Positions 9,954 through 10,505 of a DNA stretch of 16,099 nt are shown here, in pieces. Both the position numbers and the translations under genes were made by a program. How positions within the stretch are numbered: the first letter of the stretch is position 1; each line of letters opens with the position of its first letter. Source of the DNA: a virus (Duplodnaviria > Heunggongvirae > Uroviricota > Caudoviricetes); IMG/VR virus record IMGVR_UViG_2563366820_000001, positions 1-16,099 of that record. The stretch is one strand, 5' to 3'. The notes under the pieces are model-generated. The model made no database searches. It saw only the letters and a program-made list of their open reading frames with translations, and was not told the DNA's origin.

Positions 9954-10505
9954 ATGGGGCAAAGCATGACTAAGCTGACCATTAACAGAAAACCTAAAGG
10001 CAATTACGGCACGCCGCAGAAAACGACGCAGGCGGCGCAGCAGCAGCAGCAGCAGGATAAAACCACATCGGCGCATAAAGTGATGCCCGGTAACCAGAAA
10101 GCGCAGCAGAAGCCCACAGGGGCGACACCGTGGCGGCATATGACCAAACGGCAGCGAAAAAACCGCAGACGCGTTAACCGCCTCACTGAGTTGTGGCCTG
10201 AATTATTCAGCCGGGAAGCACCGAAGCCGCTTAAGGTGGGGATATTCGACGACCTGATGCAGGATCTCGCCGTCAGGGGGCTGGCATTCGGGCCAGGGGC
10301 ATTACGTGCGACGCTGGCATCTTATGCGCAGTGTCCGCGCTATTACCGCGCCTTAATGGCTGGTGGGGTACGCTACGACCTGAAAGGCCAGCCGTGCGGC
10401 GAGGTGACACCACAGGAACAACAGGACGCAGAAACGCGGCTGGTGGCGCTGAATGAGAAGCGCAAACGTCAGCGCCGGGCAGCAAAGGAGAAAACAGGCG
10501 CATGA
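9954..10505 (+). CDS. FinO/ProQ-domain RNA chaperone with N-terminal basic/Gln-rich extension (alternative start ATG 9966)
   Basis: Segment PLKVGIFDDLMQDLAVRG...GALRATLASYAQCPRYYRALMAGGVRYDLKGQPCGEVTPQEQQDAETRL aligns well by eye with the E. coli ProQ FinO-like domain (PLKIGIFQDL...[47 protein letters not shown]), recalled from memory. Confidence 0.75.
   Translation: MGQSMTKLTINRKPKGNYGTPQKTTQAAQQQQQQDKTTSAHKVMPGNQKAQQKPTGATPWRHMTKRQRKNRRRVNRLTELWPELFSREAPKPLKVGIFDDLMQDLAVRGLAFGPGALRATLASYAQCPRYYRALMAGGVRYDLKGQPCGEVTPQEQQDAETRLVALNEKRKRQRRAAKEKTGA
10038..10055 (+). repeat. (CAG)6 trinucleotide tract encoding Q6 within the FinO-like gene
   Basis: cagcagcagcagcagcag read directly; in frame (AAQQQQQQDK). 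Confidence 0.9.

What the first reader, a model, noticed from the sequence alone, without database searches (positions are those of the whole stretch)
9954..10505. Satellite-encoded FinO/ProQ-domain RNA chaperone with a (CAG)6 poly-Gln tract
The C-terminal two thirds align convincingly with the FinO-like domain of ProQ; the N-terminal third is a basic, Gln-rich extension including six consecutive CAG codons. A mobile-element-borne ProQ/FinO paralog could modulate host or helper-phage RNA, or control the island's own replication through antisense RNA as FinO does for F plasmids. The CAG repeat is a potential slipped-strand hotspot that would change the linker length in multiples of one Gln.
Basis: partly seen in the sequence, partly recalled or inferred. 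Interest (0 to 1): 0.6.

Follow-up and report, generated by a model that had tools for sequence, protein, structure and literature searches.

The report
FinO-type RNA chaperone on PICI satellite
The ORF is a real, selectively maintained FinO/ProQ-domain RNA-binding protein at the end of the helper-induced early operon of an E. coli phage satellite (PICI); its CAG run is a rare expansion in a disordered linker, RefSeq already names the gene, and neither its RNA partner nor its role is known.

Summary
Window 9954-10505 is an intact ORF. Its C-terminal two thirds are a ProQ/FinO domain (Pfam 1.6e-23; AlphaFold model closest to FinO 1DVO). Its N-terminal third is disordered, basic and Gln-rich. 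It carries a perfect (CAG)6 at 10038-10055. The real start is probably ATG 9966, giving 179 aa.

The element is a PICI at tRNA-Thr: int, alpA, DUF4222/RgdR-like gene, primase, iteron origin. In 66 of 66 related loci the gene lies downstream of the DUF4222 gene and a replicase. It usually overlaps a PerC gene, and an intrinsic terminator commonly follows. The model island EcCICFT073 lacks it, so it is accessory.

Near-identical DNA occurs in 312 of 5,426 complete E. coli genomes and more distant DNA in 1,176. All copies are chromosomal. dN/dS is 0.1-0.3 in the domain, and the four key RNA-contact residues are conserved.

The Gln tract has 2, 3, 4, 5, 6 or 9 copies among homologues, so slippage is real but rare.

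The most likely role is a FinO-type chaperone that binds terminator hairpins of island or helper transcripts. No RNA partner could be identified. I found no terminator-bearing antisense RNA near the origin.

This is a new member of a known kind, of moderate interest.

The parts
9966..10505 (+). ProQ/FinO-family CDS, 179 aa. This is the most likely real start; the stop TGA is at 10503-10505.
   Evidence: Pfam PF04352 1.6e-23. The start is set by comparison with homologues and PGAP. The exact protein is WP_024193193.1 / ELG91621.1 from E. coli KTE146.
9954..9965 (+). Four extra in-frame codons (MGQS) from an upstream ATG. They are probably not translated. GGGG at 9956-9959 serves as the Shine-Dalgarno for ATG 9966.
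   Evidence: The upstream ATG is absent in L005, L009 and L011, which keep a GGGG/GGAGG before the second ATG.
9966..10124 (+). N-terminal extension, aa 1-53: disordered, basic, Gln-rich linker with a conserved MTxLTINRKPKG motif.
   Evidence: pLDDT below 50 for aa 11-48. 9 K/R, 1 D/E, 11 Q, pI 10.5. dN/dS 0.08-0.65. Motif conservation is seen in A1.
10038..10055 (+). It is an expanded microsatellite allele.
   Evidence: TRF. Allelic series of 2, 3, 4, 5, 6 and 9 copies. The same allele occurs in strain JNU.
10125..10193 (+). Strongly basic segment TPWRHMTKRQRKNRRRVNRLTEL (aa 54-76), forming the helix that leads into the FinO domain.
   Evidence: Helices 55-58 and 61-76 in the AlphaFold model. 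9 K/R in 23 residues, pI 12. QRKN and two basic positions are nearly invariant.
10194..10496 (+). FinO-domain core (aa 77-147) plus a long C-terminal helix (aa 149-177). It contains G92, R114, Y126 and R136.
   Evidence: pLDDT 85-94. Foldseek top hits are FinO 1DVO (1.2e-6, rmsd 1.9 A), NMB1681 and RocC. The listed residues align with ProQ G37/R58/Y70/R80 and are invariant or at least 90% conserved.
10502..10789 (+). PerC-family gene. Its start overlaps the ProQ/FinO stop (ATGA).
   Evidence: Pfam PF06069 1.1e-31. PerC is adjacent in 60 of 79 related loci and directly downstream in 52.
10794..10866 (+). Two tandem intrinsic terminators: GGCCGGGA-tttt-TCCCGGCT followed by a T run (10794-10818), and a 12-bp hairpin with a T run (10829-10866). 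They end the early operon and are the nearest candidate ligand for a FinO domain.
   Evidence: Fold -39.8 kcal/mol, z = -5.4. My strict scan found no + strand terminator between 2436 and 10796.
9595..9950 (.). Iteron region (GGTAGACAGTTGGTAGACA repeats around AT-rich DNA, 31% GC). This is the putative PICI origin and lies immediately upstream of the gene.
   Evidence: (families D1, D2). It matches the PICI origin organisation described in PMC6092414.
6345..8407 (+). DUF4222 (RgdR-family) gene 6345-6659 and D5_N/DUF5906 primase-replicase 6656-8407. These are the upstream genes of the same operon.
   Evidence: Pfam. A DUF4222 gene plus a replicase lie upstream of the ProQ/FinO gene in 66 of 66 loci.
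3944..4141 (+). alpA-type HTH activator gene, the presumed start of the early rightward operon.
   Evidence: It corresponds to a 65-aa HTH protein in L001/L002 and to the Phage_AlpA gene (PF05930) in L005. AlpA function is described in PMC6092414.
1369..2825 (+). tRNA-Thr(CGT) attachment site and tyrosine integrase, forming the left end of the island next to proA.

Best explanation
The gene encodes a functional FinO-domain RNA-binding protein with FinO-type architecture. It has a disordered basic N-terminus, a very basic helix, the FinO domain and a C-terminal helix. It has no ProQ-type Tudor domain.

It is the penultimate gene of the long rightward early operon of a PICI phage satellite (alpA ... 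DUF4222, replicase, origin, [SSB], ProQ/FinO, PerC, terminator). It should therefore be made when a helper phage switches on AlpA.

Like FinO, ProQ and RocC, it most likely clamps the base of an intrinsic-terminator hairpin and buries the 3'-terminal nucleotide of the U tail in the pocket formed by Y126 and R136. The basic N-terminal part would contribute to duplex remodelling.

The most probable ligands are terminator-ended transcripts of the island or of its helper. The nearest candidate is the hairpin-plus-U-tail 3' end of its own operon, which binding would protect from 3' decay.

The (CAG)n run is a slippage-prone microsatellite inside the disordered linker and changes only linker length.

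Status of each step:
- Shown here: domain identity, fold, conserved contact residues, purifying selection, operon position, PICI context, tract polymorphism.
- Inferred: RNA binding, timing of expression, ligand identity, consequence of binding.
For: Identity:
- PF04352 at 1.6e-23. NCBIfam FinO and ProQ models both hit but below their cutoffs.
- PDB sequence hits to ProQ, FinO, NMB1681 and RocC.
- AlphaFold pLDDT 85-94 over aa 61-170, with Foldseek top hit FinO 1DVO at rmsd 1.9 A.
- G92, R114, Y126 and R136 align with ProQ G37/R58/Y70/R80. By the shared family alignment these correspond to RocC G52/R75/Y87/R97, which recognise the terminator 3' end (PMC9674577). They are invariant or at least 90% conserved in 35 homologues.

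Functionality:
- dN/dS is 0.10-0.32 for the domain and 0.08-0.65 for the N-terminus in 11 comparisons.

Context:
- PICI hallmarks are present.
- Of the IMG/VR loci, 66 of 66 have a DUF4222 gene and a replicase upstream. The replicase is one of three interchangeable types.
- 27 of 66 have SSB directly upstream, and 60 of 79 have PerC adjacent.
- A strict intrinsic terminator lies within 302 nt downstream in 61 of 86 loci. None lies in the 3 kb upstream in 81 of 86.
- In the window there is no + strand terminator from 2436 to 10796.
- AlpA activates PICI genes, and helper phages induce alpA (PMC6092414).

Ligand class:
- FinO-domain proteins bind intrinsic terminators (PMC9674577, PMC12001967).

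Tract:
- Copy numbers of 2, 3, 4, 5, 6 and 9 are seen. Among the loci, expansions occur only in uninterrupted CAG runs.
Against: - No RNA partner was identified.
- The GCCGGA-type terminator at the operon end also occurs in EcCICFT073, which lacks the gene. It is therefore not a dedicated partner.
- 25 of 86 loci show no strict terminator within 700 nt.
- EcCICFT073 excises, replicates and transfers without such a gene (PMC6092414). Any role in the island cycle is therefore dispensable or modulatory.
- Expression timing is inferred from gene order only.
- The resemblance of the N-terminal motif to FinO's N-terminus (LTINRKPKG against LTLKRKTEG) is not statistically supported. hhalign aligns only the domain.
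Confidence: 0.55

Rival explanations
1. Host-directed accessory regulator. Like the neighbouring PICI genes rgdR and perC, the protein mainly acts in trans on chromosomal RNAs of the bacterium. It would compete with or supplement ProQ on terminator-bearing sRNAs and mRNAs, and so change host traits rather than the satellite cycle.
For: - The gene is optional among PICIs; EcCICFT073 lacks it.
- It sits beside PerC and in the same operon as an RgdR-family gene, and both families affect host virulence or motility genes (PMC3378721, PMC11773190).
- It is widespread: 1,176 of 5,426 complete E. coli genomes, including decayed island remnants in ST131 and O157:H7, where only a host-level function could be selected.
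- FinO-domain proteins can capture foreign RNAs (PMC9977716).
Against: - No separate promoter was detected directly upstream; only 9-of-12 matches occur, at chance frequency.
- Its position at the end of the AlpA-dependent operon predicts little expression in the uninduced state.
- No host target is known.
Confidence: 0.25
2. Dedicated antisense-RNA system of the FinO/FinP or FopA/Inc type. The protein stabilises one specific island-encoded antisense RNA that throttles the replicase or alpA, and so sets satellite copy number or induction.
For: - All characterised FinO-domain proteins on mobile elements work this way: FinO-FinP/traJ and FopA-Inc/repZ (PMC9977716, PMC7491321).
- The gene lies in the replication module next to the origin in every locus.
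- ProQ/FinO-like genes are also noted on episomal Vibrio satellites next to repA/parA (PMC13230959).
Against: - No terminator-bearing minus-strand transcript is predicted anywhere between alpA and perC, except the leftward terminator at 5069-5044. That terminator is equally conserved in the ProQ-less EcCICFT073.
- There is no Rfam hit in 9130-9950 or at the primase 5' end.
- The gene associates with three unrelated replicase types, which argues against a replicase-specific antisense partner.
Confidence: 0.12
3. Replication accessory acting on DNA. Its constant linkage to the replicase, origin and SSB might mean that it binds single-stranded or structured DNA at the origin rather than RNA.
For: It lies immediately after the iterons or after SSB in all loci examined.
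Against: - In RocC the conserved pocket recognises the 2' and 3' hydroxyls of a terminal ribonucleotide (PMC9674577), and the pocket residues are conserved here.
- No FinO-domain protein is known to act on DNA, to my knowledge.
- EcCICFT073 pri-ori replicates without it (PMC6092414).
Confidence: 0.04
4. Non-functional passenger or decaying gene, with the CAG expansion as a sign of relaxed constraint.
For: - Truncated and fused copies exist (P0056, P0051, the L001 pseudogene fragment, the L019 114-aa copy).
- The tract length varies.
Against: - dN/dS is well below 1 in both halves.
- The reading frame is intact in the window and in most of the 80 IMG/VR loci.
- The RNA-contact residues are invariant.
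- All tract variants are in frame.
Confidence: 0.03

Closest known systems
FinO of F-like conjugative plasmids (PDB 1DVO; NCBIfam NF010317)
   Same: - Best structural match (Foldseek 1.2e-6, rmsd 1.9 A).
- 36% identity over the domain (2e-17).
- Similar size (179 against 186 aa).
- Same layout: flexible basic N-terminus, basic helix, FinO domain, C-terminal helix, no Tudor domain.
- Carried on a mobile element.
   Different: - Scores 65 bits against a family cutoff of 136.
- The N-terminal part is not alignable.
- Encoded in a phage-satellite early operon and not at the end of a tra operon.
- Never found on plasmids (0 of 1,660 places).
- No FinP/traJ-like pair is present.
ProQ, the chromosomal global RNA chaperone of Enterobacteria (PDB 5NB9; NF003434)
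   Same: - Best PDB sequence match (6e-12).
- The contact residues G37/R58/Y70/R80 are all conserved.
- It presumably shares the ligand class of terminator hairpins.
   Different: - Scores 58 bits against a cutoff of 127.
- Lacks the linker and the C-terminal Tudor-like domain.
- Has an N-terminal extension that ProQ lacks.
- Accessory and island-borne, and coexists with the host proQ.
FopA (YafB) of IncI plasmid pCol1B9
   Same: - A FinO-domain protein on a mobile element, with an N-terminal extension containing two basic stretches.
- Encoded near the replicon.
- Precedent for control of replication through an antisense RNA (PMC7491321).
   Different: - Only 32% identity, restricted to the domain (1e-7).
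- The N-terminal regions are unrelated.
- The genetic context differs.
Minimal FinO-domain proteins RocC (Legionella) and NMB1681 (Neisseria)
   Same: - Same fold.
- RocC gives the structural model for terminator 3'-end recognition that is applied here.
   Different: - About 27-29% identity.
- Chromosomal regulators with known regulons.
- Different extensions.
PICIs of E. coli (EcCICFT073, EcCIMP1) and ProQ/FinO genes listed in E. cloacae PICIs and Vibrio satellite-plasmids
   Same: - Same island type and gene order.
- ProQ/FinO-like genes have been listed as accessory or maintenance genes in satellites (PMC13612085, PMC13230959).
   Different: - The model islands lack the gene or do not mention it.
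- In the papers I could search, no study tests its function.

Membership tests
ProQ/FinO domain family (Pfam PF04352) | Profile match above the curated gathering score | tested here: met
   83.2 bits against a cutoff of 27, E = 1.6e-23, covering 104 of 109 profile positions.
ProQ/FinO domain family (Pfam PF04352) | FinO-domain fold | tested here: met
   AlphaFold pLDDT 85-94 over the domain. The 27 best Foldseek PDB hits are all FinO, NMB1681, RocC, Lpp1663 or ProQ.
ProQ/FinO domain family (Pfam PF04352) | Conserved 3'-nucleotide pocket and N-cap residues (RocC G52, R75, Y87, R97; ProQ G37, R58, Y70, R80) | tested here: met
   G92, R114, Y126 and R136 align to these positions. They are invariant or at least 90% conserved in 35 homologues. 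Their role is described in PMC9674577.
ProQ/FinO domain family (Pfam PF04352) | Binds structured RNA or terminator hairpins | not testable with these tools
   Needs EMSA, CLIP or a three-hybrid assay.
FinO sensu stricto (NF010317) | NCBIfam score above cutoff, location in an F-type tra region, and a FinP/traJ partner | tested here: not met
   65.4 bits against a cutoff of 136. The gene is chromosomal and PICI-borne, with 0 plasmid copies. No tra genes are present in the window.
ProQ sensu stricto (NF003434 equivalog) | Score above cutoff, and a C-terminal Tudor-like domain after a linker | tested here: not met
   57.7 bits against a cutoff of 127. The protein ends 4 residues after the C-terminal helix at aa 179.
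FopA branch | FopA-type N-terminal domain and close domain similarity | tested here: not met
   BLASTP gives 32% identity over the domain only, E = 1e-7, with no N-terminal alignment.
PICI (phage-inducible chromosomal island, Gram-negative type) | Integrase at a specific att site, alpA, pri/rep followed by an iteron origin, rightward unidirectional genes, and no lysis or tail genes | tested here: met
   The window has tRNA-Thr, int, alpA-like HTH, D5-type primase, iterons around AT-rich DNA and small-terminase-like/protease-like genes. No Pfam match to lysis or tail families was found among the window ORFs searched. The order matches EcCICFT073 and the criteria in PMC6092414. The right end lies outside the window.
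PICI (phage-inducible chromosomal island, Gram-negative type) | Induction, replication and packaging by a helper phage | not testable with these tools
   Requires induction and transduction experiments.

The most novel reading that the evidence does not exclude
The PICI clade of FinO-domain proteins is a satellite-specific RNA chaperone with its own ligand set. It would bind the terminator 3' ends of the satellite's early transcript and/or helper-phage regulatory RNAs during induction. That would tune satellite replication or helper exploitation, and incidentally rewire ProQ-dependent host RNAs in the roughly one fifth of E. coli strains that carry it. This would be the first RNA-chaperone layer described in satellite-helper conflict.
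Probability: 0.2. Interest if true: 0.65.

Novelty: new member of a known kind. Interest (0 to 1): 0.4.

Why it matters
FinO-domain proteins are the third major class of bacterial RNA chaperones. The characterised mobile-element members (FinO, FopA) each revealed a dedicated antisense control circuit.

This lineage is tight: only 8 cluster representatives at E <= 1e-30 among 1.84 billion proteins. It occurs in 6% (close) to 22% (distant) of complete E. coli genomes, always chromosomal and typically inside phage satellites. It is under purifying selection. It has not been studied experimentally in any paper I could search.

It gives RNA biologists a second FinO-domain protein in many clinical E. 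coli lineages. It gives satellite biologists an unexamined conserved gene at the end of the early operon.

The CAG tract itself is a small curiosity: an in-frame microsatellite in a disordered linker.

Tried and rejected
- Antisense sRNA near the origin or at the primase 5' end. Rfam at E <= 1, the consensus scans and my stricter hairpin-plus-T-run scan on both strands found nothing in 9130-9950 or 6300-6700.
- Minus-strand promoter (5147-5119) plus terminator (5069-5044) as a ProQ-specific antisense RNA. Rejected because the terminator block is conserved in EcCICFT073, which has no ProQ/FinO gene. In relatives it ends a leftward YlcI/YnfO operon.
- Weak minus-strand terminator-like hairpin inside the ORF (10183-10167), conserved in L005 and L011. 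It is explained by conservation of the QRKNRRRVNRL codons, and no promoter lies downstream of it.
- RgdR as the ProQ/FinO protein. Rejected: RgdR is a 99-aa protein (PMC3378721) and corresponds to the DUF4222 gene.
- N-terminal homology to FinO. It is suggestive by eye but not supported by hhalign.
- Scans of genome contigs. The first found nothing, and the second found only E. ruysiae and one distant MAG. The IMG/VR scan was productive.
- PADLOC gave no defence-system hit for this or neighbouring genes.
- The 257-aa 'members' of the same 90% cluster (P0127, P0131) are unrelated proteins, so this is a clustering artefact.
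Full report
**What is at the coordinates**

The + strand carries an uninterrupted ORF from 9954 to 10505. Pfam PF04352 (ProQ/FINO) matches residues 71-175 with E = 1.6e-23, 83 bits against a gathering score of 27. NCBIfam's FinO and ProQ models both match, but far below their family cutoffs: 65 against 136 bits and 58 against 127 bits.

Sequence search of the PDB finds ProQ-NTD 5NB9, FinO 1DVO, NMB1681 and RocC.

An AlphaFold model built on 35 homologues is confident over residues 61-170 (pLDDT 85-94). It is disordered over residues 11-48. 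Helices lie at 55-58, 61-76, 93-104, 110-121, 124-132 and 149-177, with a small hairpin at 135-146. Its 27 best Foldseek PDB hits are all FinO-domain structures, led by FinO 1DVO (E = 1.2e-6, rmsd 1.9 A over 102 columns).

The (CAG)6 run is exact. It lies at 10038-10055, is in frame, and is the only trinucleotide array in the window.

**Start codon**

Close E. coli relatives share the ATG at 9954. More divergent homologues (L005, L009, L011) have no ATG there. They keep a GGGG/GGAGG Shine-Dalgarno 6-9 nt before the ATG that corresponds to 9966.

Nearly all database homologues begin MT(K/T)LTINRKP, and PGAP uses that start in strain JNU. I therefore take the gene as 9966-10505, 179 aa. The Gln run is then Q25-Q30.

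**Architecture**

- Residues 1-53 are basic and Gln-rich: 9 K/R, 1 D/E, 11 Q, pI 10.5.
- Residues 54-76 (TPWRHMTKRQRKNRRRVNRLTEL) have 9 K/R and pI 12.
- The FinO core and a basic C-terminal helix follow.

The residues that in RocC form the 3'-nucleotide pocket and the N-cap are G52, R75, Y87 and R97 (PMC9674577). Their ProQ equivalents are G37, R58, Y70 and R80. They correspond here to G92, R114, Y126 and R136. These positions are invariant or at least 90% conserved across 35 homologues.

There is no Tudor-type C-terminal domain. The layout is therefore FinO-like rather than ProQ-like.

Identity to F-type FinO is 36% over the domain (2e-17). Identity to FopA of pCol1B9 is 32% (1e-7). A by-eye resemblance of the N-terminal motif to FinO's is not supported by hhalign, which aligns only the domain.

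**The gene is functional**

Pairwise Nei-Gojobori dN/dS against 11 homologues is 0.10-0.32 for the helix-plus-domain part. It is 0.08-0.65 for the N-terminal 53 residues.

**Context: a phage satellite**

The window contains, in order:

| Coordinates | Feature |
|---|---|
| 1-1254 | proA |
| 1369-1444 | tRNA-Thr(CGT) |
| 1611-2825 | tyrosine integrase |
| 2869-2936 | int-alpA RNA motif |
| 3944-4141 | alpA-type HTH gene |
| 4220-5020 | antA |
| within the long ORF 5013-5789 | Icd-like segment (C-terminal part) |
| 6345-6659 | DUF4222 gene |
| 6656-8407 | D5_N/DUF5906 primase-replicase |
| 8420-9950 | iteron arrays around AT-rich DNA |
| 9966-10505 | the ProQ/FinO gene |
| 10502-10789 | overlapping PerC gene |
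| 10794-10866 | two terminators |
| 11853-13055 | protease/scaffold-like and small-terminase-like genes |
| 14607 onward | accessory genes |

This is the organisation of Gram-negative PICIs (PMC6092414).

The exact protein is on record only from E. coli KTE146. Strain JNU carries a closely related island at the same proA-thrW site.

**Conserved position of the gene**

I examined 80 IMG/VR loci that encode relatives; most lie on contigs of 10-17 kb.

- A DUF4222 gene plus a replicase lie upstream in 66 of 66 loci with enough flank.
- The replicase is one of three unrelated types: D5-type primase (37), DUF927 (20) or RepA-like helicase (9).
- An SSB gene lies directly upstream in 27 of 66.
- A PerC gene is adjacent in 60 of 79, and directly downstream, usually overlapping, in 52.
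- A strict intrinsic terminator follows the ProQ(/PerC) pair within 302 nt in 61 of 86 loci.
- The 3 kb upstream have no such terminator in 81 of 86 loci.

In the window, the + strand has no strict terminator between 2436 and 10796. The gene is thus the penultimate cistron of the long rightward early operon.

In EcCICFT073, AlpA activates the PICI genes and helper phages induce alpA (PMC6092414). Expression upon helper induction is therefore inferred, not shown.

EcCICFT073 itself has primase, a hypothetical gene, SSB and PerC, with no ProQ/FinO gene. It is nevertheless fully mobilisable. The gene is therefore accessory.

**Distribution**

- Megablast finds the gene in 312 of 5,426 complete E. 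coli genomes.
- blastn finds it in 1,176 of 5,426 (1,660 places, up to 9 per genome).
- Every place is chromosomal and none is on a plasmid.
- tblastn against PLSDB gives only domain-level hits of about 40% identity or less on true plasmids. Phage records give six weak hits.
- The distant class includes copies in decayed island remnants of ST131 and O157:H7.

Against 1.84 billion 50%-identity representatives there are 2,181 FinO-domain relatives. Only 8 reach E <= 1e-30, so this is a narrow lineage. Source names point to Escherichia, Shigella, Salmonella and Citrobacter.

**The CAG tract**

Among 74 loci the position reads as follows:

| Sequence at the tract | Loci |
|---|---|
| QEQ or QKQ (interrupted) | 37 |
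| QQQ | 24 |
| Q5 | 1 (L022) |
| Q6 | 2 (window, JNU) |
| Q9 | 1 (L021) |

The DNA was checked. Cluster representatives add Q2 and Q4.

In an even-step sample of the closest complete-genome alleles, about two dozen of those above roughly 93% identity have the 531-nt (three-unit) length. Only JNU has 540 nt.

All variants are in frame. Among the loci, expansions occur only where the CAG run is uninterrupted. The tract sits in the disordered linker. This pattern fits occasional slipped-strand expansion with no obvious functional consequence. It does not indicate a hypervariable or phase-variable locus.

**Search for an RNA partner**

Rfam at E <= 1, the promoter and terminator scans, and my stricter scan on both strands give no terminator-bearing RNA in 9130-9950 or around the primase start.

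The strongest minus-strand terminator (5069-5044), with a 10-of-12 promoter-like site at 5147-5119, lies in a block that is conserved in relatives. It is also conserved in the ProQ-less EcCICFT073, where it ends a leftward YlcI/YnfO operon. It is not specific to islands that carry this gene.

The nearest object of the kind FinO domains bind is the 3' end of the operon itself. It comprises two hairpins with U tails (-39.8 kcal/mol, z = -5.4). The first hairpin belongs to a GCCGGA-nnnn-TCCGGC-T6 type that recurs at this position across lineages with compensatory variants.

That terminator type also occurs without the gene. It can only be called a candidate ligand.

**Literature**

The PICI papers I could search do not mention this gene. 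[quoted passage not shown] A 2026 Vibrio study lists one on satellite-plasmids. Both are annotation only.

The FinO/ProQ review notes plasmid- or phage-derived homologues in chromosomes only in general terms.

RgdR, the known regulator from these islands, is the DUF4222 protein and not this one.

**Verdict**

The gene is a genuine, conserved FinO-type RNA-chaperone gene of a PICI satellite. RefSeq already names it as 'ProQ/FINO family protein', but it is uncharacterised.

My confidence that it is an RNA-binding FinO-domain protein is about 0.9. My confidence that its main ligands are island or helper terminator-ended transcripts is about 0.4.

I classify it as a new member of a known kind, with interest 0.4.

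Noticed in passing
window 2869-2936 (+): Rfam int-alpA RNA motif (RF02996) scores 48.4 bits against a gathering score of 35.8. It lies just after the integrase stop and overlaps the 5' end of ORF 2872-3723. Its function is unknown, and I did not test it as a FinO-domain ligand.
   Followed up: partly
window 8420-9950: The replication region is a mosaic.
- GGTAGA-type iterons at 8420-8730.
- ORF 8784-9131, a C-terminal relic of a RepA-type replicase (phrog_2850 positions 347-465 of 465).
- GTGGGGAG iterons at 9130-9520, presumably cognate to that relic.
- A short relic ORF at 9543-9602.
- GGTAGACAGTTGGTAGACA iterons at 9595-9950.
Relatives EC11 and JNU lack the roughly 1.2 kb insert. ETEC1747 has a tandem origin with a ProQ pseudogene fragment.
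   Followed up: partly
window 5035-5150 (-) and 5013-5789 (+): A minus-strand terminator (5069-5044) and a 10-of-12 promoter-like site (5147-5119) lie in a block conserved across PICIs. The leftward YlcI/YnfO genes present in relatives are missing here (5279-5520 is unique). What remains is a long + ORF whose C-terminal 90 residues match the Icd-like 'transcriptional repressor' phrog_6196.
   Followed up: partly
window 6345-6659 (+): The DUF4222 protein belongs to the RgdR family, a regulator of LEE and motility (Flockhart 2012). The CFT073 orthologue has the RGD motif at aa 20-22, whereas the window's copy reads PGD. Residue 20 was reported to determine activity.
   Followed up: partly
window 10502-10789 (+): A PerC-family gene is apparently translationally coupled to the ProQ/FinO gene through an ATGA overlap. 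The pairing recurs in 52 of 79 loci. PICI PerC homologues have been reported to activate, repress or not affect LEE1.
   Followed up: partly
window 10794-10866 (+); also L014 8231-8248 and others: A recurrent PICI terminator type, GCCGGA-nnnn-TCCGGC followed by T6-8, ends the early operon in many lineages. It shows compensatory stem variants (CCGGGA/TCCCGG, CCTGGA/TCCAGG, CCCGGA/TCCGGG). In the window it is followed by a second, 12-bp terminator.
   Followed up: partly
window 14607-16099 (+): The accessory end of the island has a DUF4747 protein (E = 9.5e-98) whose stop overlaps the start of a second ORF that runs off the window. Neither ORF gave a PADLOC hit. Relatives carry different cargo at this position (ATP-dependent nuclease, Orc1/Cdc6-like protein, glycoside hydrolase). 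This is typical of the variable accessory (often defence) region of PICIs.
   Followed up: partly
window 9966-10505 against the whole window: The ProQ/FinO ORF has 58.5% GC. The window as a whole has 46.4%, and the adjacent origin has 31%. Gln is encoded 18 times by CAG and once by CAA.
   Followed up: no
P0051, P0003 (homologues): Some database homologues are N-terminal fusions. P0051 begins with an SSB-like N-terminus joined to the ProQ/FinO body. This fits recombination at the SSB-ProQ junction or a gene-calling artefact.
   Followed up: no
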